A DNA stretch of 64,000 bases from Gemmatimonas sp. (GCA_965279375.1 OZ257156.1:4096001-4160000), one strand, 5' to 3'. Shown: positions 14,254-27,961, counted from the stretch's first letter. Program-made: numbers and translations. Notes: generated by a model from the sequence alone, not told the origin.

Positions 14254-15386
14254 CAGCGCGATCCTCCACCAGCGTTCCAGGTGCCCCACCCTTCGGGGCG
14301 TTCGGTTCCGTACGCGTCATCCGTCGCATCGCGGCGGAACCAGAGCGGCTGTTCGGCCGGTGGGTCGGCGTACACACCAATCAGCGCATCGAGCGCCTGC
14401 GGCGTTCCCGACGCGTCGGCGATGTCGGTCGCTTCATCGATCTCGCGCAGCACGCGCGCGTCGATTGCGGCGATCTCGTCGTCCGTGGCGTTGAGCTCCG
14501 TGCGCAGCACCTTGAGATAGCGATCCAGCGGATCGTTCTCCGCCGCCCACTTCTCGATCTCGCCCGCCGGAACGTACGACTGATTGTCGTGCTCGGCGTG
14601 CCCTTTGCGACGATACGTCATCAGCTCGACGAGCGTGACGCCTTCACCGCGACGCGCGCGGTCGACCGCTTCCTTGGTCACGTCGTACACGGCCAGCACG
14701 TCGTTGCCATCGGCCTGCAGTCCGTGCACGCCGTACCCGATCGCCTTGTCGACGAACTGTTTGGCTGCGGTCTGCTTGTGCGTGGGTGTGGAGTAGGCGT
14801 AGCCGTTGTTCTCGACGATCACCACCAACGGGCAGCGTTGCACCGCAGCGAAGTTGATCCCTTCGTGAAAGGCGCCGGTGCTCGTCGCACCATCGCCGAT
14901 GTACACGAGGCCCACGCGATCTTCGCCGCGCATCTTGAACGAGAGCGTGACGCCGGCCATCACCGGCACCATGTCGCCGAGTGGCGAGATCTGCCCGAGG
15001 AATCCACGCGTGGTGCCGGCCGCGCCGATGTCACCGAAGTGGATGTTGAGCTCGCGACCGCGCGTGGGCGAATCGCCCTTGGCCATGTACTGCTTCAGCA
15101 CTTCGACGGGCGTCGCACCCTTCACGAGCATCGCGCCAAGATTGCGAATCAGCGGCGACATGACATCGCGCTGCTCGAGCGCGAAGCAGCTTCCGACCGC
15201 ATCGGCTTCCTGGCCGAGCGAACGAAACAGGCCGCCGACGACCTTGGTCTGTCGATAGAGATTGACGAGCCGTTCTTCGAGCTGACGCGTCAGGCGCATC
15301 CAGTAGTACAGTGCCAACTTCTGCTCGCGCGAAAGCGCGTCACTCGGTCGGCGCGACGCGGTGCGTCCGGCACGCGCCTTGGCCAT
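14253..15386 (-). CDS. 2-oxoacid dehydrogenase E1 alpha subunit (TPP-dependent)
   Basis: GQEA, GDGATSTG.FHEG.NFA...ENN TPP motif, TYRRKGH. Confidence 0.95.
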   Translation of the reverse strand: MAKARAGRTASRRPSDALSREQKLALYYWMRLTRQLEERLVNLYRQTKVVGGLFRSLGQEADAVGSCFALEQRDVMSPLIRNLGAMLVKGATPVEVLKQYMAKGDSPTRGRELNIHFGDIGAAGTTRGFLGQISPLGDMVPVMAGVTLSFKMRGEDRVGLVYIGDGATSTGAFHEGINFAAVQRCPLVVIVENNGYAYSTPTHKQTAAKQFVDKAIGYGVHGLQADGNDVLAVYDVTKEAVDRARRGEGVTLVELMTYRRKGHAEHDNQSYVPAGEIEKWAAENDPLDRYLKVLRTELNATDDEIAAIDARVLREIDEATDIADASGTPQALDALIGVYADPPAEQPLWFRRDATDDAYGTERPEGWGTWNAGGGSR

Positions 15387-15679
15387 CAGTAGCCGGCCTC
15401 GATGCGGTGACGCGGATCGGCGGTGCGATGCAGCGCGTTGAAGAACTTCTTCACGTTCTTGTCGAGACGACTCTCGCCAACCTGGTCGGTGTGCGCTTCG
15501 ACGACGGTGTAGTGACCACCGTCCATCTTCACTGTGAGCTTCATCGCGCCGAGCGGGCCGGTGAAGGCTCGCGCACGCGCGTCGCCGCTCTGCTTGGCGA
15601 GTCCCAGTGGCGTGAAGAACTGATCGGCCGTTGCCAGCACGACGTCAGGGGTGAGCGTGGTGCGGTGAAAGTGTCGCAA
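15386..15679 (-). CDS. small hypothetical protein
   Basis: 97 aa, TTG start, TGATG coupling to E1 alpha. Confidence 0.72.
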   Translation of the reverse strand: MRHFHRTTLTPDVVLATADQFFTPLGLAKQSGDARARAFTGPLGAMKLTVKMDGGHYTVVEAHTDQVGESRLDKNVKKFFNALHRTADPRHRIEAGY

Positions 15680-15681
15680 CC

Positions 15682-16260
15682 TCAGGGCTCCTTCTTGGGG
15701 GCCGGTGCTGGCTTCGCGGCCGGGGGCGCGCCCTTGTCGGGCACGACGGTCTCGCGCTGATCCTGCGGCGCACGCGACGACTGCGGGGTGGTGAAATCAC
15801 CCGGCTCGTCGGCGACCATGATGTCCTGCGTCCAGTCTTCCGTGCGCTGCAACGCTTTGGTCGAATCGCGTCGGAACTGCAGGCCCATCGCCCACATGCC
15901 CGCGGTGACGAACATGAGATTCGTGCGGTAGGTGCCGAGCTCTCCGGTTTCGGAGAGCCCGTTCGCTACGGTCTTGCGATCGCGGTTGGTGGCGAAGATC
16001 CGCCCCTGTCCGCCCTGAATTGGCGCGCCGGTCTTGATGTCGTTCACGACGACGCGCCAGTGCGTCGGTTCCAGCGCGCGCGTGGGTCGCTGTTCGGGGG
16101 CGACCCGAATCACGAACTCGTCCGTCTTGAATCGCAACTCGTTCTTGGGCGGCGTACCGGCATCGCAGCCCGTCAGCGAAACGCCGACGACTGCGACCAT
16201 CATCATCCCACGAAGCGAAGCAACGAAACCGCGAACCCCACGCGCACGCTGTTCGGTCAT
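15682..16260 (-). CDS. hypothetical lipoprotein (Ig-like/YtkA-like by pattern)
   Basis: LTGC lipobox; G.Y...L.F...G.W pattern; Pro-rich tail; ATGA overlap with the inositol synthase stop. Confidence 0.75.
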   Translation of the reverse strand: MTEQRARGVRGFVASLRGMMMVAVVGVSLTGCDAGTPPKNELRFKTDEFVIRVAPEQRPTRALEPTHWRVVVNDIKTGAPIQGGQGRIFATNRDRKTVANGLSETGELGTYRTNLMFVTAGMWAMGLQFRRDSTKALQRTEDWTQDIMVADEPGDFTTPQSSRAPQDQRETVVPDKGAPPAAKPAPAPKKEP

Positions 16261-17585
16261 TGATAGTACTCGAGTCCGAGGTGGGTGATCTGCTCCTCAC
16301 CCATCCGGTGCCGGAGCGTGTTCTTCAGCTTGGTCTGCTGAATGAAAAGATCATGCTCAGGCTGGAGCCCCGCAGCAGTCTGCGGCGACTTGTAATAGAA
16401 GCTTAACCATTCCTGAATCCCCTTCATCCCGGCACGCATCGCGAAGTCGCTGAACAGCGCGAGGTCGAGGACGATCGGTGCAGCAAGAATGGAATCGCGG
16501 CAGAGGAAGTTGACCTTGATCTGCATCGGATAGCCGAGCCATCCCTTGATGTCGATGTTGTCCCAGCCTTCCTTGTTGTCGCCGCGCGGGGGGTAGTAGT
16601 TGATGCGCACGACGTGCGAGAAATCCTTGTACAACTCCGGATAGAGCTCCGGCTGCAGGATCGTGTGCAGCACCGACAGCTTCGACTCTTCCTTCGTCTT
16701 GAACGACGCCGGATCGTCGAGCACTTCGCCGTCGCGATTGCCGAGGATGTTCGTGGAGTACCAGCCTTCGAGGCCGAGCATGCGCGCCTTGAGCCCCGGC
16801 GCGATGATCGTCTTCATCCACGTCTGGCCGGTCTTGAAATCCTTGCCCGAGATGGGCACGCCCTTCCGGTTGGCGAGCTCGATGAGCGCCGGGAAGTCGG
16901 CCGAGAGGTTGGGCGCACCGTTGCAGTACGGGATGCCTTCCATAATCGCGGCATACGCGTACAACATGCTGGGCGCGATCGCCGGATCGTTCGCTTCCAT
17001 CGCCGCTTCAAACGCTTCGATCGTCTGATGCTGCGGGCCGGCGACGATGAAGATTTCCGTCGAGCCGCACCACACCATCGCGCCGCGCGTTGCGCCACTC
17101 GAGGCCATGAAGTTGCGGATGTCGGCGCGCAGCTGCTCGGCGAGATCGCGCTTGTTCTTGCCCGTCTTGACGTTCGTGCCGTTGATGCGCGTGACGTAGT
17201 GGTTCTCGAAGACGGCCGGCATCGGCTTGATCGTCTTGAGGAAATCCGCGATCGGATCGATGTCCGACTTCTCGAGCACGCCGGCCTTGGTGGCCGCAGT
17301 GAACGCGTCGTCATGGAACGGGTCCCACGCCGCGAAGACGATGTCGTCCAGCTTGGCCAGCGGCACGAAGTCCTTGATGAGCGGGCTCCGCGACTCGGTA
17401 CGCTTGCCGAGGCGGATCGTGGCCATCTGCGTCAGCGAGCCGATGGGCGTGGACAGGCCGCGACGGACGCGCTCGACACCGGCGATGAGCGTCGTGGAGA
17501 CCGCGCCCAGTCCGGGGGTGAAGATGGCCAGCTTGCCCGAGGCCGGGGCAATGGACGCGGCGCCGCCGCGAGACGTATCGGTCAC
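16257..17585 (-). CDS. ino1: inositol-3-phosphate (L-myo-inositol-1-phosphate) synthase
   Basis: GLGAVST, WCGSTE, NGAP, GKDFKTGQT, NILGNRDG, GDNK, CRDSILAAP. Confidence 0.94.
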   Translation of the reverse strand: MTDTSRGGAASIAPASGKLAIFTPGLGAVSTTLIAGVERVRRGLSTPIGSLTQMATIRLGKRTESRSPLIKDFVPLAKLDDIVFAAWDPFHDDAFTAATKAGVLEKSDIDPIADFLKTIKPMPAVFENHYVTRINGTNVKTGKNKRDLAEQLRADIRNFMASSGATRGAMVWCGSTEIFIVAGPQHQTIEAFEAAMEANDPAIAPSMLYAYAAIMEGIPYCNGAPNLSADFPALIELANRKGVPISGKDFKTGQTWMKTIIAPGLKARMLGLEGWYSTNILGNRDGEVLDDPASFKTKEESKLSVLHTILQPELYPELYKDFSHVVRINYYPPRGDNKEGWDNIDIKGWLGYPMQIKVNFLCRDSILAAPIVLDLALFSDFAMRAGMKGIQEWLSFYYKSPQTAAGLQPEHDLFIQQTKLKNTLRHRMGEEQITHLGLEYYQ

Positions 17586-18211
17586 TGAGTCGGTTCTCCC
17601 TGAGAGGTCGTACGATAGACGTAAAGCATGCGCTGCACCGCCGTGATCCATGCGGTCACGGAGAGTAGCGTCACGATGAAAGCCAGCACCCAACCATTCA
17701 ACGCCAAGCCGAAGAACGCTTGCGGCGCCGACAGCAGCGTCACACGCTCCGGCCGCTGGAGCAACCCGACTTTGGCGTCCAGCCCAAGGCTTTCGGCGCG
17801 CGCGCGGGTGTACGAGGTAAGAAACGTGCCGATGAGCCCGGCGAGCGTGATCACCAGCAGCACGGGATTGGCGTGCACCGGATTGATCGCGTAGAACACG
17901 ACGAGGCCTCCCAACACACATCCGTCGGCGACGCGATCGAGCGTGGAGTCGTAGAAGGCGCCGAAGACGCTGCTGCGTCCCGTGCGCCGCGCGACAGTCC
18001 CGTCGAGTACATCGAACAGCGCCGTCAGCCCGAAGAACCAGCCAGCCGTACGGATGTGTCCGCTCGCGAAAATCCCCCCCGCGATCACGGTACACAGGGT
18101 GCCGATGGTCGTGATGGTATTGGGATGAACCCGACGGCGCACGAGCCAGTCGGCAATGGGCTCGATGAGCCGCAGATAGCCGCGCTGGATCGCGCTCCAC
18201 AAAGCTTGCAT
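17582..18211 (-). CDS. CDP-alcohol phosphatidyltransferase, phosphatidylinositol-phosphate synthase-like
   Basis: HPNTIT, DVLDGTVAR-x8-G-x3-D-x3-D, SYTRARAESLG, RPER. Confidence 0.9.
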   Translation of the reverse strand: MQALWSAIQRGYLRLIEPIADWLVRRRVHPNTITTIGTLCTVIAGGIFASGHIRTAGWFFGLTALFDVLDGTVARRTGRSSVFGAFYDSTLDRVADGCVLGGLVVFYAINPVHANPVLLVITLAGLIGTFLTSYTRARAESLGLDAKVGLLQRPERVTLLSAPQAFFGLALNGWVLAFIVTLLSVTAWITAVQRMLYVYRTTSQGEPTQ

Positions 18212-18338: not shown

Positions 18339-19667
18339 TTAACGGTAGAGATAGAATCGCCGCACATCGCGCTCGTACGCGACAATCGCAGGCAGCTGTC
18401 GGTCCATCACGGCGTCCGGATCGGCACCCGCCAGAATCGCCTCTCGCACCTTGGCCGCGCCCATTCGCAGGTCAAAACCACGGTCCGTCACGCGCAGTGA
18501 GTCCTTGTTCAGGCGATTGAGCGCCCACAACAGCGCCGCACCCACCCGCGCCGGCTGCACCAGCGCGCGGTCTGTGACTTCGATGCGAATTCCCGGAATC
18601 GACTTGTCGCCGTACTTGTTGTCGCCCGGCTGCTGCGGCGTGAACCGTTCCGCCTTGAAACGCACGCCGGTCAAGGAGAGGTCCTCCAGCAGGCGAGCCA
18701 ACGTGTCCGCACGCAGCCACGGTGCGCCGATGCGCTGAAAGGGCTCGTTTGTGCCCCGACCCACGGAGACGTTGGATGCTTCGAAGGGCACGAGCGCCGG
18801 ATAGAGCAGCGCGCTCGTCTGGTTGGGCAGATTGGGCGACGGCTTCACCCACGGCAGTCCCGTCTCGTCAAACCACATCGCACGCCGCCAGTACTGCATC
18901 GGCACGACGGTCAGCCGCGTGGTCATCTGCAGCTGCGCCTGAAAGAGGCGCGCCATTTCGCCCATCGTCAGCCCATGACGCAGCGGCATCGGATAGAGCG
19001 CGAAGCCATTGGCCGGCTTGGCGGGCGTGGCATACTCGGGGTTGGCCAGCGCCGAATCGAGCATCGCGCCTTCGATGCGCACACCGGAGAGCGGATTGGG
19101 CCGATCGAGGACCACCACGGGAATCCCCTTCTTGGCACCGGCGCGCATCGTGTAGAGCATCACGCCCACGTACGTCCAGGTGCGGGTACCGATATCCTGC
19201 AAATCGACCACCAGCACGTCGACGTCCGTCAGCAGGCTGTCCGGCGGCGGCACCGTGCCGCGCTGATAGAGCGAGAAAATAGGCAGGCCGGTCTTGGCAT
19301 CCTTGTCGTCGGCCACGTTCTCATGATCGGCAGTGCCCTGCGCGCCATGCTCGGGCGCGAACAGCCGCACCAGCTTCACACCAGCCTTCACCGCGCGCGG
19401 ATCGTTGAACAGCAGGTCGATCGAACGACGCCCCTTTTCATCCACGCCTGTTTGATTCGTCACGAGCGCGACGCGCTTGCCGGCCACGAGCTTGATGCTA
19501 TCGTCCATGAGCACCGAGATGCCGGGGCGCACTCGTCGGTTGATGCGCAACGGCATGCCGTCCGGCCCCTCCTCGGGCTGGGGACGATTGTCGGGCTTAT
19601 TGTTGCCAGAGCAGGCGGCGATCACCGCCGCTGCGCCCACGGCGACAAGCCACAGACCACGCTTCAC
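18339..19667 (-). CDS. namZ: exo-beta-N-acetylmuramidase (DUF1343), lipoprotein
   Basis: TNQTG, LFAPEHG, DLQDIGTR..TY, LDRPNP, RHGLTMGE, PSPN, SVGRGT; IAAC lipobox after GTG 19667. Confidence 0.9.
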   Translation of the reverse strand: MKRGLWLVAVGAAAVIAACSGNNKPDNRPQPEEGPDGMPLRINRRVRPGISVLMDDSIKLVAGKRVALVTNQTGVDEKGRRSIDLLFNDPRAVKAGVKLVRLFAPEHGAQGTADHENVADDKDAKTGLPIFSLYQRGTVPPPDSLLTDVDVLVVDLQDIGTRTWTYVGVMLYTMRAGAKKGIPVVVLDRPNPLSGVRIEGAMLDSALANPEYATPAKPANGFALYPMPLRHGLTMGEMARLFQAQLQMTTRLTVVPMQYWRRAMWFDETGLPWVKPSPNLPNQTSALLYPALVPFEASNVSVGRGTNEPFQRIGAPWLRADTLARLLEDLSLTGVRFKAERFTPQQPGDNKYGDKSIPGIRIEVTDRALVQPARVGAALLWALNRLNKDSLRVTDRGFDLRMGAAKVREAILAGADPDAVMDRQLPAIVAYERDVRRFYLYR

Positions 19668-19847
19668 CGTTCCGCGCCTCGTCTCCGGCACCATTCGCTG
19701 CATCGACCAACGCGCGTGCTGCTGGCACGCCGTCTCTTCCTGCCTCGCTCCGAGATGCTTCACGCACTCCTCCAGGTATGGCCGTCACGCCGACGCGGCG
19801 TATCGGACCTGCTTGTCGGCGAACACATCACACTCCGCCCTCCCTAC

Positions 19848-21716
19848 GTGGCCCCGCTCGCGCGCACCTCGTTTGCCCTGCTGACCGGCCTGTCCCTTAC
19901 CGGCGTGGCACTCGCCGGATGTGCCCGACCCGCCACGACTCCGAATGCCGCGTCCACCGGCATCTCGATGCGCGGTGCACGGCCAGCGGCATTGTCCGTC
20001 GACCCCTCGGTTCCGCTGCCCGCCGAGCATCGCCGATGGATCGACCGCACCGTCGCCACGATGACCCTCCGCGAACGCGTGGGCCAGATGGTGATGGTCT
20101 GGGTCCTCGGTGACTTCACGAACGCACGCGAACCGGGCTTTCTCAAGATCGTTGACCAAGTTCAGCGCGATGGTATCGGTGGGATCGTGATGTCACTGGG
20201 CTCACCCGTCGAAGTGGCAGCCAAGCTCAACTACCTGCAGGCCCGCGCGAAAATCCCGCTGCTCGTTGGCAGCGATGTGGAGCCGGGGCTCGGTCGTCTC
20301 GAAGGTGGATTCTTCTCGCCCACCTACCCGAGCGCCGGCAGTGCGACCGTACTGCCGAGCAACATGGCCATCGGTGCGACCGGTCGCGTGCAGGATGCCG
20401 AAGACGCCGGTCGGATCACGGGCACGGAATCGCTTGCGATCGGCATCCACATGGCGTTCGCGCCTGTCGTGGACGTCAACAACAATCCGTCCAATCCCGT
20501 CATCAACGTTCGGTCGTTCGGCGAGGACCCGCGCGCCGTCTCCACGCTCGCGTCGGCGTTCATCAAGGGCGTGCAGTCCACCGGCGCCGCCGCCACGGCG
20601 AAGCACTTTCCCGGCCACGGCGACACCGACACCGATTCGCATCTGGGGCTGCCCGTGATTCCCGTGCCGCGTAGTCGGCTCGATTCCGTGGAGCTGCTTC
20701 CTTTCGCGGCCGCCGTACGTTCCGGCATCGCCGGCATGATGACGGCGCACATTGCGTTGCCCGGTGCCTATGGCGACAGCGTGCCGGCGACGCTCTCGCC
20801 GCGCATTCTCACAGGACTGTTGCGCGATTCCCTCGCCTTTCGCGGCGCGACGTTCACCGACGCGATGACGATGGACGGACTCGCGCGCGGTTACGGCGTG
20901 GAAGAAAGCTCCGTGCGCGCGATCGAAGCAGGCAACGACATTCTGCTCATGCCCCCCGATGTCACCAAGGCGATCGACGCGGTCGTCAAGGCAGTGGAGA
21001 GCGGACGCATCACACCGGCTCGCATCGAACAGAGCGTGCGCCGCATTCTCGAGCTCAAGCTGCGTACCGGCGCGGTCGCACGACCGATCGTCTCGCTCGA
21101 TGCACTGCGCGACTCCGTGGCCACACCCGCTCACTGGGCCACGGCACAGGGGATCGCACAGCGTGCGATCACGCTGCTGCGCGACAGCGCGTCGCTGGTG
21201 CCGGTCGCACGTACTGCCCGCGTCATGCTTCTCACGTACGCGGCCGATGCCGAAGTCGCCGCTGGTGTTCCCTTCACTGCCGAAGTCCGCCGCCAAGGAG
21301 CGCGGGTGCGTGCCTCACGACTCTCGCCGCACGCGAACGCCGCCGAACTGGATTCACTGGCGCGCGAGGGCGAACAGATGGATCGCGTCATCGTCTACTC
21401 GTATACGCGCACCCTCGAGGGCGAAGGACGCTTGGCCATCCCTGCGCCGATCGCGGCATTCATCGCGCGGTTGGCCAGCAGCGGCAAATTGGTGATGGTC
21501 GCTGGTGGCAACCCCTACCAGTTGCGTCAGGTACCCTCGGTGCCCACCTACATGGTCACCTATGGACGCGGTGACGCGCTCGAGCGCGCGGCCGCGCGTG
21601 CACTGTTCGGCATGGCTCCGATCTCGGGGCACATCCCGGTCACACTTCCCGGATTCTTCACACGAGGCGAGGGACTGATGCGTGAGATCGCGCGCGACAC
21701 GAAGGGAACGCCATGA
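19848..21716 (+). CDS. nagZ: GH3 beta-N-acetylglucosaminidase, lipoprotein
   Basis: KHFPGHGDTDTDSH, FAPVVDVN, NVRSFGEDP, TDAM; LAGC lipobox; start approximate. Confidence 0.9.
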   Translation: MAPLARTSFALLTGLSLTGVALAGCARPATTPNAASTGISMRGARPAALSVDPSVPLPAEHRRWIDRTVATMTLRERVGQMVMVWVLGDFTNAREPGFLKIVDQVQRDGIGGIVMSLGSPVEVAAKLNYLQARAKIPLLVGSDVEPGLGRLEGGFFSPTYPSAGSATVLPSNMAIGATGRVQDAEDAGRITGTESLAIGIHMAFAPVVDVNNNPSNPVINVRSFGEDPRAVSTLASAFIKGVQSTGAAATAKHFPGHGDTDTDSHLGLPVIPVPRSRLDSVELLPFAAAVRSGIAGMMTAHIALPGAYGDSVPATLSPRILTGLLRDSLAFRGATFTDAMTMDGLARGYGVEESSVRAIEAGNDILLMPPDVTKAIDAVVKAVESGRITPARIEQSVRRILELKLRTGAVARPIVSLDALRDSVATPAHWATAQGIAQRAITLLRDSASLVPVARTARVMLLTYAADAEVAAGVPFTAEVRRQGARVRASRLSPHANAAELDSLAREGEQMDRVIVYSYTRTLEGEGRLAIPAPIAAFIARLASSGKLVMVAGGNPYQLRQVPSVPTYMVTYGRGDALERAAARALFGMAPISGHIPVTLPGFFTRGEGLMREIARDTKGTP

Positions 21717-22918
21717 TGACTGCTCACCTGCGCTCACCGCGCGCCGTCGTGGCGGCGGGCACGCTGCTCGTCGCCGCGGCGGCAGGCGCTTGTGCCAGCG
21801 CGACGTCGGCGGCGAGTAGCGCACCTACGGCGGCCGCGGCCGGCATCCCCGCTTCGCGCATCAATGCCCTTCAGGATTCGCTGCGCGTCGTCATCGACCG
21901 CGCGATCGCCGACAGTGCGTTTCCCGGTGCCTACGTCGCAGTTGGCAACGCGAACGGCGTACTGGCCGAATACGGCGCCGGCCGCCTCGACGCGGCCGAC
22001 GCCACGCGACCGAGCGCCAGCACGGTCTGGGACCTCGCCTCTCTCACCAAGGTCGTGGGGACGACCTCGGCGATGCTCCAACTCGTCGGACAGGGGAAGG
22101 TCGTCCTCGACTCGCCGGTGGTGCGCTATCTCCCCGCATGGAAGGCGCCGGGCACGTCGCGCATCACGGTGCGTCAGCTCATGACGCACTCGGCGGGCCT
22201 CCCGGCCTGGCGCCCCTTCTACAAGGAAGCCACGACCGCCGACGAAGCGATCGGTCAGCTGTTCGGCACTGGCCCCGACACCGTGCCCGGCAAGCGATTC
22301 CTGTACAGCGACCTGGGCTTCATGCTACTCGGCAAGCTGGTCGAAAACGTCTCGGGCGAGTCGCTGGCGCAGTACGACGTGGCGCACATCTTCGCGCCGC
22401 TCGGCATGCGCGACACCCGCTACTTGCCGCCGGCCGACTGGCTGCCGCGCATCGCCCCGACTGAGCAGGACCCGTGGCGCCAGCGAAAGGTGCGCGGAGA
22501 GGTGCACGACGAGAACGCGGTCCGAGTGGGCGGCGTCTCCGGGCATGCGGGGCTCTTCTCCAGCGGGCGGGATCTCGCCCGATTCGCTCGCATGTATCTG
22601 AGCGGCGGAACCCTCGACGGAGCGCGCGTGTTCGACGCGGGCACGGTCGCGCAGTTCACTCGCGTCCAGGACACGACGATCTCGCGCCGCGCGTTGGGGT
22701 GGGAGACGCCCACCGGAGGCAACTCTGCGGGTCGGAAGCTGTCACCCGTGGCGTTCGGGCACACCGGATTCACCGGTACCTCGCTCTGGATGGACCCGCA
22801 GCGGGGGATGTTCGTCCTTTTGTTGACCAACCGGGTGAACCCGACCCGGACGAATCTCAAGATTGGTCGGGTGCGCACCTCTGTCGCGGACGCGGCGGTG
22901 GCGGCACTCTTTCCCTGA
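21713..22918 (+). CDS. beta-lactamase-fold serine hydrolase, AmiE (MurNAc-L-Ala amidase)-like, probable lipoprotein
   Basis: DLASLTK (SxxK), LMTHSAG, YSDLGF, GEVHDENA, GHAGLFS, FGHTGFTGT, LLTNR; AGAC lipobox. Confidence 0.85.
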   Translation: MMTAHLRSPRAVVAAGTLLVAAAAGACASATSAASSAPTAAAAGIPASRINALQDSLRVVIDRAIADSAFPGAYVAVGNANGVLAEYGAGRLDAADATRPSASTVWDLASLTKVVGTTSAMLQLVGQGKVVLDSPVVRYLPAWKAPGTSRITVRQLMTHSAGLPAWRPFYKEATTADEAIGQLFGTGPDTVPGKRFLYSDLGFMLLGKLVENVSGESLAQYDVAHIFAPLGMRDTRYLPPADWLPRIAPTEQDPWRQRKVRGEVHDENAVRVGGVSGHAGLFSSGRDLARFARMYLSGGTLDGARVFDAGTVAQFTRVQDTTISRRALGWETPTGGNSAGRKLSPVAFGHTGFTGTSLWMDPQRGMFVLLLTNRVNPTRTNLKIGRVRTSVADAAVAALFP

Positions 22919-23086
22919 GTCGGCGCTCGGGGCGTCCCAGATTTCTTGCAAGGGGAGCGATCCAGTCGCTATTATCTCGGGTAGCATGACACGACGTCGC
23001 AGCGCTGGGTTTCCGCGTGGTGCGGGAACGAGCAACGACGCGTTCCATCAGGCCGACGGTACCGCCGGCCGTTTCGGAGGGCAGCA

Positions 23087-23446
23087 ATGAGCACGATGCA
23101 GCAGCCAGAGGTCATGGTGGTCATTACGCCGGTCGCCGGGACCGAAGTTCTGAAGTTCATGGAAGCCGAAGGCGTGACGGCGGAACAGGGCGGTCTGCGT
23201 GTGTCCGTGATGCCGGGCGGTTGCAGCGGCTTCAAGTACGGCCTAGTGATCGAAGACAAGAGCGCCGAAGACGACATCGTGATCGATCACGAAGGCGGCT
23301 TCAAGGTGTTCGTGGATCCGTTCTCCGCGCAGTATCTCAGTGGTACGGTGATCGATTACGTCTCGTCGATGCAGGGTTCGGGCTTTACATTCAAGAATCC
23401 GAATTCCACGGGCGGATGCGGCTGCGGGAGTTCCTTCTCCGCCTGA
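23087..23446 (+). CDS. A-type Fe-S carrier protein (IscA/ErpA/HesB family)
   Basis: GGCSGFKY, NPN, GGCGCGSSF; GGAGG RBS. Confidence 0.96.
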   Translation: MSTMQQPEVMVVITPVAGTEVLKFMEAEGVTAEQGGLRVSVMPGGCSGFKYGLVIEDKSAEDDIVIDHEGGFKVFVDPFSAQYLSGTVIDYVSSMQGSGFTFKNPNSTGGCGCGSSFSA

Positions 23447-23489
23447 TCACGTCGGCGCCGCGTCAGGCGCCCACCACCACAGCACAACG

Positions 23490-25451
23490 ATGAGTTCTCA
23501 GGCCACCAGCACACCGGAGCCCTCGCTGGCCCGCGTCCTCGATCCGAGTCGCGGGCCTCTGCGTATCGAGGCTTCGCCTGATCTTCCCTCCGATGCTGCG
23601 CTGCGTTCGCGCGAGCGCATTCCAACCATCATCGTCGACGATCACGAAGCGCTTGCCCGCATGGTGGCCGCGCGTATCGCGACACTCATTCGCGATCGCG
23701 CCGCCGCCAATCGCAAGATCGTGCTCGGCCTCGCGACCGGATCCACGCCGATCGGTGTCTATCGCGAGTTGATCCGCCTGCATCGCGAAGAACAGCTGAG
23801 CTTTGCGAACGTCGTGACGTTCAATCTCGACGAGTACTACCCGATGCCGCCCGCGAGCATCCACTCGTATCATCGATTCATGTGGGAGAATCTCTTCTCG
23901 CACGTGGACATCGACGCGGCGAACGTGCATCTGCTGGACGGCACACTCGCGCGCGCCGATGTCGAAGCGGCCTGCCGCGCCTACGAAGACGCGATCGTCG
24001 CGGCGGGTGGCATCGATTTCCAGCTTCTCGGTATCGGCAAGACCGGCCACATCGGCTTCAACGAGCCCGGCTCGGGTGAGTCGAGCCGGACGCGCATCAT
24101 CCATCTCGATCACGTCACCCGCCGCGACGCCTCGGCGGATTTCTTCGGCGAAGAGAACGTGCCGCGCGAAGCGATCACGATGGGTATCGCGACGATCCTC
24201 GCTGCGCGTGAAATCGCCATTCTGGCGACAGGCGAGCACAAATCGGGCGTCGTCAAGCGCGCTGTCGAAGGCGAGATCGATCGCGACGTCGCCGCGACGT
24301 TCCTGCAGCGTCATCCGTCCACCACGTTTTTTGTGGACGAATCGGCTGCGGTCGAACTCACGCGAGTCGCGACTCCATGGCTGCTCGATGAAATCACGTG
24401 GACCGACGCGCTCGAAACGCGCGCGGTGACGTGGCTGGCCGGACGCACGGGCAAGGCGATTCTCAAGCTCACGCACCAGGACTACGCCGATCATCAGCTC
24501 ACGTCGCTGGTCGCGCGCCACGGCTCGCCCGGCGCGGTGAATGGTCTCGTGTTCAACGTCCTCGGCGCCAAGATCAAGGGCAAGAGCAAGCTGCCGCGCG
24601 CGAAGCGCGTGATCTGCTTCTCGCCGCACCCAGACGACGACGTGATCTCGATGGGTGGCATCCTGCGCAAGTTCGTCGAGAACGAGAACGACATGACCGT
24701 CGCGTACATGACGAGCGGCAACATCGCCGTGTTCGATCATGATGTGCGCCGCTACATGGATTTCCTCGAGCGGTTGGACCGCGAGCGCATCAGCGATGGC
24801 ACTGCAGTACGCCAGCTCGCGGAAACCGTGGATGCCTTCCTGACCAACAAGCACGCCGGCCAGGTCGATATTCCGGAAGTGCAGGACATCAAGCGCATCA
24901 TCCGCGAGTCCGAAGCGGTGAGCGGCATCGAAGTGATGGGTCTCAATCGCTCGCATGCGCGCTTCCTCAACCTGCCCTTCTATCAGACAGGCAAGGTGCG
25001 CAAGGATCCGATCGGTCCTGCCGACGTGAGAATCGTGGCCGATCTGCTCCGCGAGCTCAAGCCGGAAATCGTCTTCGTGGCCGGCGACCTTTCCGATCCG
25101 CACGGCACCCATCGCATGTGCAAGGAAGCGATCGATGCTGCGCTCATTGAAGTGTACGGCGACGGTGCGGTGGCGCCGGCGCGTCCGGAAGTGTGGCTCT
25201 ACCGCGGTGCGTGGCAGGAGTGGCCGGTGACTGAAGCCACGACGCTCGTCCCGCTCTCGCAGGAAGAGCTGACGCTCAAGATCCAGGCGATCTTCAAGCA
25301 TCAGTCGCAGAAAGACTCGGCTCCCTTCCCCGGCCAGGACGAACGCGAGTTCTGGCAGCGCGTCGAACAGCGCAACAAGGCCACGTCGGCGCAGCTCGAT
25401 CGATTGGGACTCGCAGAATACTTCGCGATGGAAGCGTATGTCATCGTCTAA
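23490..25451 (+). CDS. nagB: glucosamine-6-phosphate deaminase fused to a PIG-L/LmbE deacetylase-like domain
   Basis: GLATGSTP, FNLDEY, GHIGFNEP, AITMG; C-terminal SPHPDDD, DPHGTH, HQSQ. Confidence 0.92.
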   Translation: MSSQATSTPEPSLARVLDPSRGPLRIEASPDLPSDAALRSRERIPTIIVDDHEALARMVAARIATLIRDRAAANRKIVLGLATGSTPIGVYRELIRLHREEQLSFANVVTFNLDEYYPMPPASIHSYHRFMWENLFSHVDIDAANVHLLDGTLARADVEAACRAYEDAIVAAGGIDFQLLGIGKTGHIGFNEPGSGESSRTRIIHLDHVTRRDASADFFGEENVPREAITMGIATILAAREIAILATGEHKSGVVKRAVEGEIDRDVAATFLQRHPSTTFFVDESAAVELTRVATPWLLDEITWTDALETRAVTWLAGRTGKAILKLTHQDYADHQLTSLVARHGSPGAVNGLVFNVLGAKIKGKSKLPRAKRVICFSPHPDDDVISMGGILRKFVENENDMTVAYMTSGNIAVFDHDVRRYMDFLERLDRERISDGTAVRQLAETVDAFLTNKHAGQVDIPEVQDIKRIIRESEAVSGIEVMGLNRSHARFLNLPFYQTGKVRKDPIGPADVRIVADLLRELKPEIVFVAGDLSDPHGTHRMCKEAIDAALIEVYGDGAVAPARPEVWLYRGAWQEWPVTEATTLVPLSQEELTLKIQAIFKHQSQKDSAPFPGQDEREFWQRVEQRNKATSAQLDRLGLAEYFAMEAYVIV

Positions 25452-25478
25452 CCTGCCATCGTTCAACAAGCGGGTCTC

Positions 25479-27014
25479 GTGACCGGTCGCTTCAATCTTC
25501 TGGATCTGCTGGTGCTGCTGGCCTACCTGACCGGCACAACAGCGCTGGGCATGTGGATCGGCCGAGGACAGCGCACGGCGAACGAGTACTTCGTGGCAGA
25601 GCGCGCGATCCCGTGGTGGGCGGTGCTCTTCTCCATCGTGGCGAGTGAAACGTCTGCGCTGACGTTCATCAGCATTCCCGGGTTGTCGTACGTCGGCAAC
25701 CTCGGGTTTCTCGAGGTCGTCGCAGGCTACATCGTTGGACGAATCGTCGTGGCGTACACGCTGTTGCCGCGGTATTTCGCCGGCAACCTCGTCACGGCGT
25801 ACGCACTCCTCGAAACACGCTTCGGTCTCGGCACACGCCGCTTCACGTCGATCGTGTTCATGATCACGCGTGCGCTGGCAGATGCGGTGCGCGTCTTCGC
25901 AACCGCTATTCCGGTGGCATTGATCATCGGTCCTGTCATGCCGGCCGAGTACACCATGCCCGCGGCCATCATCGTGCTGGGCGTCCTCACGGTCATCTAC
26001 ACGTACCGCGGCGGCATGAAGGCCGTGGTGTGGACGGAGTTGTTGCAGGCAAGCATTTATCTGTTCGGCGGGCTCTCCGCGATCGTGCTGATTGGCGGTG
26101 CGGTGGACGGCGGCTGGAGCACGATCATCGACAAGGCTGGCGCGGCAGGCAAGCTGCAAGCCATCGACTGGTACGCAGGCTTCGATCGACCGCACACGAT
26201 GTTCGCCGGCATCATCGGCGGTGCGTTCCTCGCCATGGCATCGCACGGCGCGGATCAGATCATCGTGCAGCGGTTGCTCTCCAGCCGTTCACTCAAGCAG
26301 GCGCAGGTGGCAATCATCGGCAGCGGCTTCGCCGTATTCGCGCAGATGACGCTCTTCCTGTTCGTCGGCCTCGGTCTGTGGGTGCTGTACGAAGGACGCC
26401 CGTTCTCGGCGGCGGATCAGATCTTCCCGACGTACATCATCGAGCGCATGCCGCATGGCCTCATCGGCCTGATTGTCGCGGCCATCATCGCGGCCACGAT
26501 GAGCACGCACTCCGGCGCGATCAATGCGCTGGCTGCGTCGTCCACGCACGACATCTACTTGCCGTTCACGGGACGCAGCCCGGATGATCCGCGCACGCTC
26601 AAGGTCGGCAAGCTGTTCGCGCTTGGCTGGGGCATCGTGCTTACGCTTGGCGCGCTGATGTTCAAGGAGAACGGGACGCCCGTCGTCGTGATTGCGCTGT
26701 CGATCGCTTCCTTCACACAGGGCGGACTGCTGGGCGGTTTCTTCCTCGGCATGTTCTGGTCGCGCGCCATTCAGCGCGATGCGATACTTGGAATGAGCGT
26801 GGGCATCAGCTGCATGGCGTTCATCGTATTCGCCAAGCAGATCGTGGCCGCCTATCCGTCCACTGCCAGCACGCTTGGTGGCGTGGCGACGATCGCGTGG
26901 CCGTGGTATGTGCTCATCGGTCTCTCGATTACCTTCGTGACGGGGATGTTGTCCTCCTTCACGCACGCGGCGCCGAGTGGCGCGCCGCTTCCTTCCACTC
27001 GGACTCGCGCATGA
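25479..27014 (+). CDS. sodium:solute symporter (SSS family)
   Basis: Multiple TM segments; SETSALTF, YTYRGGMKAVVWT, DQ..VQR.L, AATMST. Confidence 0.93.
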   Translation: MTGRFNLLDLLVLLAYLTGTTALGMWIGRGQRTANEYFVAERAIPWWAVLFSIVASETSALTFISIPGLSYVGNLGFLEVVAGYIVGRIVVAYTLLPRYFAGNLVTAYALLETRFGLGTRRFTSIVFMITRALADAVRVFATAIPVALIIGPVMPAEYTMPAAIIVLGVLTVIYTYRGGMKAVVWTELLQASIYLFGGLSAIVLIGGAVDGGWSTIIDKAGAAGKLQAIDWYAGFDRPHTMFAGIIGGAFLAMASHGADQIIVQRLLSSRSLKQAQVAIIGSGFAVFAQMTLFLFVGLGLWVLYEGRPFSAADQIFPTYIIERMPHGLIGLIVAAIIAATMSTHSGAINALAASSTHDIYLPFTGRSPDDPRTLKVGKLFALGWGIVLTLGALMFKENGTPVVVIALSIASFTQGGLLGGFFLGMFWSRAIQRDAILGMSVGISCMAFIVFAKQIVAAYPSTASTLGGVATIAWPWYVLIGLSITFVTGMLSSFTHAAPSGAPLPSTRTRA

Positions 27015-27961
27015 GCGCCGGCCCACTCGATCCCATGCCGCTCGTCGTCGGAGTTGACGGCGGCGGCACTCGCACACGTGTCGTGCTCGCCGACGCCGCG
27101 GGCAACGTGCTCGCGCGCACCGAGGGCGCGGCCACGTCGCTGCAGCCCGGCCACGAGTCCGTTGCGGCCGACATCATCAAGGTGCTCATCGCCGACGTGC
27201 TGGCGATGGCGGAGCGCACGGAAACTCGTCCGGCGGTCTGCGTCGTTGGCGTGGCGGGAGCGGGCCAGGAGCGTACGGCGCAAGCGCTGTGGTCCGCGCT
27301 GGCGTCGCGTCGCATTGCCGATGACGTGTCGGTGCAGGCCGATGCGACGATCGCGATGGACGACGCGTTTGGCGACTCCGCCGGTGTGCTGCTCATCGCC
27401 GGTACTGGCTCCGTGGCGTTCTCGCGTGCACCGGATGGCCGGTTGGAGCGTTGCGGTGGATGGGGTCCCAACATTGGCGACGAGGGCAGTGCCGCATGGC
27501 TCGGCCGTCGTGCGCTGAGCGTCGTGACGGCGGCAAGCGATGGCCGCGAGCCCGATACCGCGCTCACCGGAGCACTGCTGACCGCGCTCGAGCTCGAGTC
27601 GCTGGATGAGCTGATCCCGTGGGCGGCGGATGCGACGCCCGGAAAGCTCGCGGCGTTGGCGCCCGTAGTGGCCAAGGTTGCGTCCACCGGCGATCTGCGT
27701 GCCAATGCGCTCATCAGTCTGTGCGTGGAAGAGCTCTCGCTGCACGTGCGCACGTTGGCGCGTCGTTGCTTCATGGACGAGCGCGCGGCGATTCCTGTGG
27801 CGTTGGCCGGCGGGCTGATGTCCAAGGGTTCGCTGGTGCGGAAGCGCCTCGAGCAGCGTCTCAAGAGCGCCGTGCCGGGCGCGATGGTGCGTGCCGACGA
27901 TGTCGACGCAGCGCGCGGTGCAATTCGTCGTGCGCGCCGACTGCTGGGTGTCGAGGTGTAA
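27011..27961 (+). CDS. BadF/BadG-type sugar kinase (GlcNAc/MurNAc kinase-like)
   Basis: GVDGGGTRT, GVAG, IAGTGS, GGWG..IGDEGS, LAGG; ATGA overlap with the symporter. Confidence 0.88.
   Translation: MSAGPLDPMPLVVGVDGGGTRTRVVLADAAGNVLARTEGAATSLQPGHESVAADIIKVLIADVLAMAERTETRPAVCVVGVAGAGQERTAQALWSALASRRIADDVSVQADATIAMDDAFGDSAGVLLIAGTGSVAFSRAPDGRLERCGGWGPNIGDEGSAAWLGRRALSVVTAASDGREPDTALTGALLTALELESLDELIPWAADATPGKLAALAPVVAKVASTGDLRANALISLCVEELSLHVRTLARRCFMDERAAIPVALAGGLMSKGSLVRKRLEQRLKSAVPGAMVRADDVDAARGAIRRARRLLGVEV

What the first reader, a model, noticed from the sequence alone, without database searches (positions are those of the whole stretch)
18339..27961. Candidate PTS-independent peptidoglycan-sugar salvage pathway with three lipoprotein hydrolases
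Seen: namZ (divergent), nagZ and an AmiE-like serine hydrolase all carry lipoboxes (IAAC, LAGC, AGAC) and are followed by a NagB fusion, a Na+/solute symporter and a coupled BadF-type kinase. Known: B. subtilis clusters amiE-nagZ-namZ with the PTS permease MurP and MurQ, and BadF-fold MurK kinases phosphorylate MurNAc/GlcNAc. Inference: this diderm digests own or foreign muropeptides to monosaccharides in the envelope and imports them with an SSS symporter plus kinase, replacing PTS and AmpG routes. I know of no characterised MurNAc-specific SSS transporter. murQ and nagA are not in the window.
Basis: partly seen in the sequence, partly recalled or inferred. Interest (0 to 1): 0.72.

Follow-up and report, generated by a model that had tools for sequence, protein, structure and literature searches.

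The report
Sodium-symporter cell-wall sugar salvage cluster
A bacterium of a little-studied phylum keeps a conserved gene cluster that most likely chops cell-wall fragments into single sugars outside the cell, imports them through an untested sodium-driven transporter, and may finish them with one fused enzyme that stands in for a missing standard enzyme.

Summary
The genes are real and correctly named, but an erpA gene with its own conserved promoter splits them into probably three units. Nearest named relatives are Gemmatimonadaceae. The complete genome lacks a PTS EIIC, AmpG and NagA; murQ-anmK lie elsewhere. The linkage is conserved: 70 of 70 class loci keep a hydrolase beside the symporter and 64 keep the kinase, even where flanking genes are lost. 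The same symporter clade sits beside anmK (16 of 17 actinomycete loci), murQ or namZ in other phyla and is fused to AmiE-NamZ in two named genomes. Best reading: a Na+-coupled (anhydro)MurNAc/GlcNAc importer plus kinase. This works like Tannerella MurT-MurK, so a PTS-independent route is not new; one paper even calls MurT a sodium symporter (unresolved). The added lead is the PIG-L domain fused to NagB as the missing NagA: fusion in 61 and NagA in 0 of 106 class genomes. The two co-occur in 14 of 141 Bacteroidota, which argues against strict replacement. Nothing is tested biochemically. The scan noted both ideas before on other DNA (e1-4093008, e1-800308).

The parts
18339..19667 (-). namZ, GH171 exo-beta-N-acetylmuramidase homologue, predicted lipoprotein (Cys19); the ORF list starts it at 19763, the likely start is GTG 19667
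   Evidence: Pfam NamZ_N 231.9 and NamZ_C 129.2 bits; PDB 4k05 E 1.4e-57 with the PEHG glutamate aligned; lipobox
19668..19847 (.). 180-bp divergent intergenic region between the namZ and nagZ starts
   Evidence: sequence; head-to-head namZ/nagZ arrangement kept in most relatives; no consensus promoter found
19848..21716 (+). nagZ, two-domain GH3 beta-N-acetylglucosaminidase, predicted lipoprotein (Cys25)
   Evidence: Pfam GH3 282 bits; KHFPGHG..DSH and TDAM motifs; PDB 6k5j E 4e-81, B. subtilis YbbD/NagZ 3bmx E 2.5e-63
21713..22918 (+). AmiE/PBP4B-like serine hydrolase, predicted lipoprotein (Cys27); muramoyl-L-Ala amidase activity inferred from context only
   Evidence: Pfam Beta-lactamase 218 bits; best NCBIfam PBP4B 152.9 bits, below the cut-off of 385; SLTK, YSD and HTG motifs; fused to GH3 in relatives and to symporter+NamZ elsewhere
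22946..22975 (+). sigma-70-like promoter (TTGCAA-18-TATTAT) heading erpA-nagB-symporter-kinase
   Evidence: similar site upstream of erpA in 45 of 56 loci against 2.5 expected from shuffles
   Evidence: TIGR00049 110 bits over the cut-off; present in 56 of 70 class loci but 0 of 12 loci of families f6/f7
23490..25451 (+). NagB (GlcN-6-P deaminase) fused to a PIG-L/LmbE de-N-acetylase domain; candidate stand-in for NagA
   Evidence: Glucosamine_iso 51-273 and PIG-L 376-551; PRK02122; HPDDD, DPHGTH and HxSQ near-invariant in 79 sequences; model pLDDT 90.6 with best folds diacetylchitobiose deacetylase, BC1534, BshB, MshB
25479..27014 (+). solute:sodium symporter of a peptidoglycan-linked clade; candidate (anhydro)MurNAc/GlcNAc importer
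   Evidence: TIGR00813 over the cut-off; best solved relative is the sialic acid symporter SiaT 5nv9, E 4e-45; Na2 site kept; clade-invariant Glu57, Ser59, Thr62, Arg138; neighbours and fusions
27011..27961 (+). BadF-family sugar kinase, translationally coupled to the symporter; MurNAc/GlcNAc 6-kinase inferred
   Evidence: PF01869 122.8 bits; best PDB hit 8zo3 'N-acetylmuramic acid/N-acetylglucosamine kinase' E 9e-29, then NagK/NAGK; only 25% over 158 aa to a Tannerella-MurK-type kinase

Best explanation
This is a class-wide peptidoglycan amino-sugar salvage module. Step 1 (families shown, activity inferred from B. subtilis): membrane-anchored NagZ, the AmiE-like amidase and NamZ trim wall fragments in the envelope to GlcNAc, MurNAc and anhydroMurNAc. 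Step 2 (inferred): the Na+-coupled symporter imports the free sugars, most likely MurNAc and anhydroMurNAc, possibly also GlcNAc. Step 3 (inferred): the coupled BadF kinase makes MurNAc-6-P/GlcNAc-6-P, and AnmK (elsewhere) handles anhydroMurNAc. Step 4 (gene shown): MurQ (elsewhere) gives GlcNAc-6-P. Step 5 (least certain, about 0.55): with no NagA, the PIG-L domain of the fusion deacetylates GlcNAc-6-P to GlcN-6-P, which the NagB domain deaminates to fructose-6-P or GlmM/GlmU reuse. The symporter-kinase pair is transcribed from the erpA promoter, probably constitutively, so recycling of the cell's own wall is the main job, with foreign wall as a bonus.
For: Genome gaps: no PTS EIIC, AmpG or NagA in a complete genome; murQ and anmK present. 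Across 106 class genomes: symporter 99, murQ 104, anmK 97, NagA 0, fusion 61. Over 121 phylum genomes: PTS EIIC over the cut-off 4, AmpG-like 22. Synteny: 70 of 70 class loci have at least one hydrolase within 9 kb, 41 have all three, 64 have the kinase. In families f6/f7 the flanks erpA, ino1 and pgsA are gone (0 of 12) while 12 of 12 keep hydrolases. Other phyla: 30 of 62 non-Gemmatimonadota loci have a peptidoglycan or amino-sugar gene within 6 kb, including anmK directly upstream in 16 of 17 actinomycete loci and murQ-anmK-symporter-nagB-amidohydrolase in Arthrobacter L131. Single-chain symporter-AmiE-NamZ fusions occur in L181 and L201 with an internal signal-peptide-like segment; 8 of 19 scanned long or unusual homologues carry AmiE-like or NamZ domains. 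The six other symporters of G000 are not within 10 kb of the namZ, close nagZ/amiE, kinase or murQ/anmK genes. For step 5: metal-site motifs near-invariant, de-N-acetylase fold. In the class a short NagB never occurs without the fusion (12 of 12). Among 50 other genomes the fusion is in 9 with NagA in 0 of them, while 10 of 11 short-NagB genomes have NagA. L289 has MurK-type kinase, murQ, one further gene and the fusion in a row in a genome without NagA.
Against: No transport or enzyme assay exists for any member I could find. The SiaT carboxylate arginine (Arg135) aligns to Ala134 here; the conserved arginines are one turn away, so MurNAc binding is not shown. In Rhodothermota (1 of 10) and Bacteroidota/Ignavibacteria/Chlorobi/Balneola (1 of 19) the symporter has no peptidoglycan neighbour, nor in families f10/f11 apart from a Mur ligase in f10. 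In 141 Bacteroidota the fusion (47) and NagA (27) overlap in 14, more than the 9 expected, and in G181 nagA lies in the same locus as a fusion. 45 of 106 class genomes have neither NagA nor a NagB match yet the class keeps murQ almost everywhere, so the fusion is dispensable. Kin are not independent: the exclusion rests on about two lineages.
Confidence: 0.72

Rival explanations
1. The symporter imports the disaccharide GlcNAc-anhydroMurNAc or small anhydromuropeptides and so is a functional AmpG substitute. Cytoplasmic GH3, AnmK and MurQ at the second locus finish the job.
For: A GH3 without a signal peptide sits in the murQ-anmK locus; AmpG-like genes are missing in 99 of 121 genomes while anmK is nearly universal in the class.
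Against: The G000 cytoplasmic GH3 has KRFPGTG in place of KHFPGHG. The symporter is linked and fused to exo-enzymes that make monosaccharides. Genomes that do have AmpG-like genes mostly keep this symporter too. A different symporter clade follows murQ-anmK-GH3 in L305 and L307.
Confidence: 0.12
2. Archaeal-style order of steps: the PIG-L domain deacetylates free GlcNAc (or chitobiose) to glucosamine, the BadF kinase is a glucosamine kinase, and NagB deaminates GlcN-6-P. MurNAc is not the main substrate.
For: The closest solved relatives of the PIG-L domain by sequence profile and by fold are archaeal diacetylchitobiose deacetylases. BadF-family glucosamine kinases exist (recalled). The fusion coexists with NagA in some Bacteroidota.
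Against: The kinase stays with the symporter in 64 of 70 loci while the fusion is there in 10. The best kinase hit is a MurNAc/GlcNAc kinase. This route leaves the MurQ product GlcNAc-6-P without a deacetylase.
Confidence: 0.1
3. The genes are neighbours by inherited gene order only; the symporter carries an unrelated solute (sialic acid, vitamin, monocarboxylate).
For: Gene order in this order is strongly conserved for unrelated genes too (ino1 and pgsA in 49 of 70 loci); erpA interrupts the cluster; best solved relatives are SiaT, SMVT and SMCT1.
Against: Linkage survives loss of all flanks in f6/f7; different peptidoglycan partners recur in four other phyla and as gene fusions.
Confidence: 0.06

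Closest known systems
Tannerella forsythia murT-murK-murQ with namZ1 and ampG (PMC5790795, PMC7670621, bioRxiv 10.1101/2021.12.02.470905; passages read)
   Same: Diderm without PTS; periplasmic NamZ; secondary transporter plus BadF-family kinase replaces MurP; MurQ downstream.
   Different: The kinase here is of the NagK/8zo3 type, not Tf MurK type (no hit; 25% over 158 aa). No AmpG in G000; AnmK present. Whether MurT is an SSS protein could not be settled: papers call it sodium symporter superfamily, MFS, or a novel family, and the primary paper is not held.
Bacillus subtilis murQ-murR-murP-amiE-nagZ-namZ (PMC8054146; passages read)
   Same: Same trio of secreted exo-hydrolases that digest peptidoglycan to GlcNAc, MurNAc and peptides.
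   Different: No PTS permease or regulator in the cluster; namZ divergent; murQ unlinked; no NagA in the genome.
Proteus mirabilis SiaT sialic acid symporter (PDB 5NV9; PMC5931594, passages read)
   Same: Best solved relative (E 4e-45); Na2 site Ala339/Ser342/Thr343 and substrate Ser/Thr of TM1 kept.
   Different: Thr58 is Glu, Arg135 aligns to Ala with conserved arginines one turn away, Ser346 is Gly; no nan genes in the cluster.
PRK02122 / NF002557 glucosamine-6-phosphate deaminase-like protein (nagB-PIGL)
   Same: The window protein is a full member (912 bits, cut-off 384). [quoted passage not shown]
   Different: I found no paper testing the PIG-L domain or calling it a NagA substitute.

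Membership tests
GH171 NamZ | NamZ_N and NamZ_C domains with the conserved glutamate after strand 2 | tested here: met
   Glu92 of B. subtilis NamZ described in PMC8054146, equivalence inferred from the alignment to 4k05
GH171 NamZ | exo-release of MurNAc (NamZ2/BsNamZ type) rather than disaccharide (TfNamZ1 type) | not testable with these tools
   needs an assay
GH3 NagZ | KHFPGHG..DxH motif and Asp nucleophile (motif recalled) | tested here: met
   KHFPGHGDTDTDSH and TDAMTM; PDB hits to NagZ enzymes
AmiE exo-muramoyl-L-Ala amidase | SxxK, YxN/D and HTG serine-hydrolase motifs | tested here: met
   shared with many esterases, so not diagnostic
AmiE exo-muramoyl-L-Ala amidase | orthology to B. 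subtilis AmiE or E. coli PBP4B | tested here: inconclusive
   best NCBIfam is PBP4B but 152.9 bits against a cut-off of 385; no AmiE among the PDB hits; support is from context and fusions only
Solute:sodium symporter (SSS) | SSF domain and Na2 site | tested here: met
   TIGR00813 191.9 over 184; Ala339/Ser342/Thr343 against SiaT Ala339/Ser342/Ser343
SiaT sialic acid symporters | Thr58/Ser60/Thr63/Gln82/Arg135 binding set and nan gene context | tested here: not met
   Thr58 is Glu, Arg135 aligns to Ala; context is peptidoglycan genes
Tannerella MurT | sequence homology to Tanf_08375 | tested here: inconclusive
   no MurT sequence reachable; primary paper not held; no murT-murK-murQ locus recognised among the 20 Bacteroidota murQ regions fetched at 10-12 kb
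Tannerella-type MurK | homology to Tf MurK/K1058 structures | tested here: not met
   no hit at E 0.001; 25% over 158 aa to a protein scoring 235 bits on 8oqw
MurK/NagK BadF kinases (8zo3, NAGK) | DGGGT, IAGTGS and GGWG..GDEGS motifs; best hit among solved kinases | tested here: met
   MurNAc versus GlcNAc preference not testable
PIG-L/LmbE de-N-acetylases | fold and HPDD..H metal site (ligand roles recalled) | tested here: met
   the second motif is DPHGTH rather than HxDH
NagA-equivalent GlcNAc-6-P deacetylase (by function) | mutual exclusion with NagA | tested here: inconclusive
   met in Gemmatimonadota (61 fusion, 0 NagA of 106; f10 the reverse) and in 50 other genomes (0 of 9 overlap); not met in Bacteroidota (14 overlap of 141)
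NagA-equivalent GlcNAc-6-P deacetylase (by function) | activity on GlcNAc-6-P | not testable with these tools
   needs an assay

The most novel reading that the evidence does not exclude
The symporter defines an unrecognised, cross-phylum family of Na+-coupled (anhydro)MurNAc importers, in some lineages made as one chain with its periplasmic hydrolases. The PRK02122 NagB-PIG-L protein is a bifunctional GlcNAc-6-P deacetylase/GlcN-6-P deaminase, a non-homologous replacement of NagA. Together they give a complete recycling route without PTS, AmpG or NagA. The 45 of 106 class genomes with neither enzyme would then have to return GlcNAc-6-P straight to UDP-GlcNAc (about 0.3 on its own).
Probability: 0.42. 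Interest if true: 0.7.

Novelty: new variant of a known kind. Interest (0 to 1): 0.52.

Why it matters
It names testable candidates for two gaps in cell-wall recycling. One is how bacteria without MurP or AmpG import muramic acid: a 2021 review of prokaryotic SSS proteins has no mention of muramic acid, GlcNAc or peptidoglycan (PMC7918813), and a 2026 paper calls the mycobacterial MurNAc transporter unknown (PMC13691567; I did not test mycobacteria). The other is how NagA-less bacteria use GlcNAc-6-P. It would give functions to a widespread anonymous transporter clade and to PRK02122, and it bears on how Gemmatimonadota turn over bacterial wall material (G000 has four namZ genes).

Tried and rejected
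Settling MurT's family: Ruscitto 2016 and a 2021 review are not held. A murQ search over 141 Bacteroidota and 20 fetched regions showed no murT-murK-murQ locus, so this is unresolved. Expression: no RNA holder listed; not used either way. Pseudomonas-type route: PF01636 and PF00483 searches showed no AmgK-MurU pair, and none of the five nucleotidyltransferases I scanned reached the MurU cut-off. Other deacetylases in G000: the stand-alone PIG-L is BshB1 (over the cut-off); two long PIG-L proteins are unassigned. NagB-II in fusion-less genomes: only GlmS-length matches in 4 of 4 tested. One-operon model: rejected because of erpA and its promoter; read-through is not excluded, since no terminator was found. 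First ORF picker missed many GC-rich genes; counts rest on tblastn instead. Literature searches with no relevant hit: 38 (0 papers), 39, 82 (0 papers), 83, 101, 117, 123. Own-scan look-ups by place gave nothing, and by sequence only an unrelated note. Supplements were not read for any paper and could hold family assignments for MurT or nagB-PIGL.
Full report
1. Observation. The six named genes are at the stated places and belong to the stated families. Likely starts are GTG 19667 for namZ on the minus strand, GTG 19848 for nagZ, ATG 21713 for the serine hydrolase and ATG 27011 for the kinase. All three hydrolases match a lipobox pattern that 136 of 4124 predicted genes match. A looser pattern is found near the N-terminus in 40 of 62 namZ, 41 of 53 nagZ and 27 of 53 amiE relatives (many amiE are fused behind nagZ, and the loose pattern has false hits). 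A sigma-70-like site precedes it and recurs in 45 of 56 relatives against 2.5 expected. The region is best read as namZ, nagZ-amiE, and erpA-nagB-symporter-kinase.

2. Genome context. G000 is one contig, 99.95% complete; its nearest named relatives are Gemmatimonadaceae (L199, 83% symporter identity). It has murQ over the cut-off and anmK next to it, 1.2 Mb away, followed by a GH3 without a leader and an amidase. It has no PTS EIIC, no AmpG match and no NagA (best E 4e-7). It has GlmS, an archaeal-type GlmM and the alternative GlmU TIGR03991. It has four namZ genes, two close nagZ and two close amiE homologues, but one kinase and one fusion.

3. Conservation in the phylum. In 121 genomes at least 90% complete, 106 of them in the window's class, the symporter is single-copy in 110 (99 of the class). 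Class counts are murQ 104, anmK 97, full-length NagB-PIG-L 61, NagA 0. Over all 121, PTS EIIC passes the cut-off in 4 and AmpG-like genes occur in 22, 6 over the cut-off, most within about 6 kb of murQ. These tallies include the unpublished genomes G053 and G093; dropping them moves counts by at most two. I fetched 80 of the 109 other symporter loci, leaving out G053 and mostly those near contig ends. Of 70 class loci, 70 have at least one hydrolase, 41 all three, 64 the kinase, 56 erpA, 10 the fusion. In the window's own family nagZ is in the locus in only 4 of 20. In families f6/f7, erpA, ino1 and pgsA are gone from 12 of 12 loci while hydrolases remain in 12, often as a GH3-beta-lactamase fusion touching the symporter. 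Background gene order therefore does not explain the linkage. The ten loci of families f10/f11 have none of these genes; in f10 a Mur ligase follows the symporter.

4. The symporter clade elsewhere. Within 6 kb, a peptidoglycan or amino-sugar gene was found in 16 of 17 actinomycete loci (anmK directly upstream), 5 of 5 labelled Proteobacteria, 5 of 8 Acidobacteriota-type, 2 of 3 others, but only 1 of 10 Rhodothermota and 1 of 19 Bacteroidota/Ignavibacteria/Chlorobi/Balneola. Arthrobacter L131 reads murQ-anmK-symporter-nagB-amidohydrolase, and L181 and L201 encode symporter, beta-lactamase-family and NamZ domains in one 1300-residue chain, with a signal-peptide-like segment at the joint. Of 19 long or unusual representatives scanned, 8 carry AmiE-like or NamZ domains; six of those eight are single-member clusters, so some could be read-through artefacts. 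The 98 clade sequences group apart from the six other G000 symporters (FastTree support 0.88) and keep Glu57, Thr58, Ser59 (97 of 98), Thr62 and Arg138 (98 of 98). Against SiaT (residue roles from PMC5931594), the Na2 site is kept, while the carboxylate arginine aligns to alanine with conserved arginines one turn either side. That is compatible with an acidic amino sugar but does not show it.

5. The kinase. Its best solved relative is 8zo3, named MurNAc/GlcNAc kinase (E 9e-29), then NagK-type and human NAGK; Tannerella MurK is not hit. A MurK-type protein from L289 shares only 25% over 158 residues with it. That 8zo3 is the Clostridium acetobutylicum enzyme is my recall.

6. The fusion and the missing NagA. 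The C-terminal domain keeps HPDDD, DPHGTH and HxSQ almost unchanged in 79 sequences. Its model (pLDDT 90.6) matches diacetylchitobiose deacetylases, BC1534, BshB and MshB. In the class, fusion 61 and NagA 0; family f10 shows the reverse, with short NagB and NagA-like matches below the cut-off in 9 of 9. Twelve class genomes have an extra short NagB and all keep the fusion. In 50 other genomes (50 of 62 non-Gemmatimonadota loci, completeness not given), 9 have the fusion and none of them NagA; 25 have NagA and none the fusion; 10 of 11 with only short NagB have NagA. Against this, 141 Bacteroidota give fusion 47, NagA 27, overlap 14 where 9 are expected, and G181 has both in one locus; only the ten best-scoring copies lack NagA throughout. 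Of 20 relocated fusion loci, 4 keep a close amiE neighbour and the rest show no related context. I put GlcNAc-6-P deacetylase activity at about 0.55. Unexplained: 45 of 106 class genomes have neither NagA nor a NagB match, and four tested lack NagB-II as well, so their GlcNAc-6-P needs another fate.

7. Mechanism. Shown: gene families, motifs, linkage, fusions, presence and absence. Inferred from B. subtilis (PMC8054146, passages): sequential exo-digestion to monosaccharides. Inferred from context: import by the symporter, phosphorylation by the kinase or AnmK, etherase step by MurQ. Least certain: deacetylation by the PIG-L domain. Confidence in the overall salvage reading is about 0.72.

8. 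Comparison with what is known. It works like Tannerella MurT-MurK-MurQ, where transporter plus kinase rescued an E. coli murP mutant (PMC5790795, passages; the primary 2016 paper was not seen). It is not shown to be the same family: the kinase is of another type and MurT is described as sodium symporter, MFS or a novel family. Other papers seen as passages: bioRxiv 10.1101/2021.12.02.470905, PMC10465942, PMC7918813 (no mention of muramic acid), PMC13198582, PMC5583593, PMC4814513; PMC13691567 abstract and discussion. Searches found no paper on this cluster, on an SSS tested with MurNAc, or on the PIG-L domain as NagA; most subscription papers and all supplements were out of reach. Earlier AI notes of this scan proposed an SSS salvage route in another phylum (e1-4093008) and NagA-free processing by such a fusion (e1-800308, e1-897528); my notebook holds the NagA idea, before these were seen, and they are not independent support.

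9. Verdict. Real and conserved, a new variant of a known kind. The pathway logic is known; the transporter clade, its fusions and the possible NagA substitute are untested and directly assayable. Interest 0.52.

Noticed in passing
L006:11398-12894 (G000:C1:2929397-2930893): GH3 without a signal peptide right after murQ-anmK has KRFPGTG in place of KHFPGHG and lacks the DSH motif; the motif is intact in L304 and L307 and was not recognised in L301 and L305. Possibly a degenerate NagZ.
   Followed up: partly
L016:8192-10030; L305; L307; L155, L171, L200: A second, distant symporter clade (about 600 aa) sits inside the cluster in 22 of 70 class loci, follows murQ-anmK-GH3 in two loci, and lies just downstream of the first symporter in three Ignavibacteria/Chlorobi-type loci; the G000 relative (L097:6091-8007, 40%) lies elsewhere. 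Candidate disaccharide or peptide importer.
   Followed up: partly
G010, G027, G035, G065 and 41 other class genomes: murQ is kept while neither NagA nor NagB is found; no NagB-II in the four tested. The fate of GlcNAc-6-P is unexplained.
   Followed up: partly
L045-L051: In family f10 the symporter is followed directly by a MurC-like ligase (TIGR01082 289 bits, below the cut-off) and preceded by a conserved 110-aa protein with no Pfam match; these genomes lack murQ and anmK.
   Followed up: partly
L181:5989-9912; L201:2472-6365: Symporter-AmiE-NamZ single-chain fusions with an internal signal-peptide-like segment, perhaps cleaved after export.
   Followed up: partly
L089:4561-6874 (G000:C1:4735560-4737873): Adjacent galactokinase-like (GHMP) kinase and unassigned nucleotidyltransferase, both below all NCBIfam cut-offs; could be a sugar-1-phosphate salvage pair.
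   Followed up: no
L102:4901-6055 and L092:8130-9503: G000 uses the alternative bacterial GlmU (TIGR03991) and an archaeal-type GlmM (TIGR03990); no canonical GlmU.
   Followed up: no
window 15386-18211 (minus strand): Conserved upstream block: CDP-alcohol phosphatidyltransferase, myo-inositol-1-phosphate synthase and two small proteins without a Pfam match (192 and 97 aa), before the pyruvate-dehydrogenase-like genes; suggests inositol lipid synthesis.
   Followed up: no
L111:8170-9315, L112:8316-9578, L226:4340-5542: Membrane proteins next to relocated fusions look NagX-like (label recalled); only the L226 one hits Pfam HGSNAT_cat.
   Followed up: no
L016:12499-13398: A 299-aa protein with no Pfam match is inserted between symporter and kinase in one relative.
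   Followed up: no
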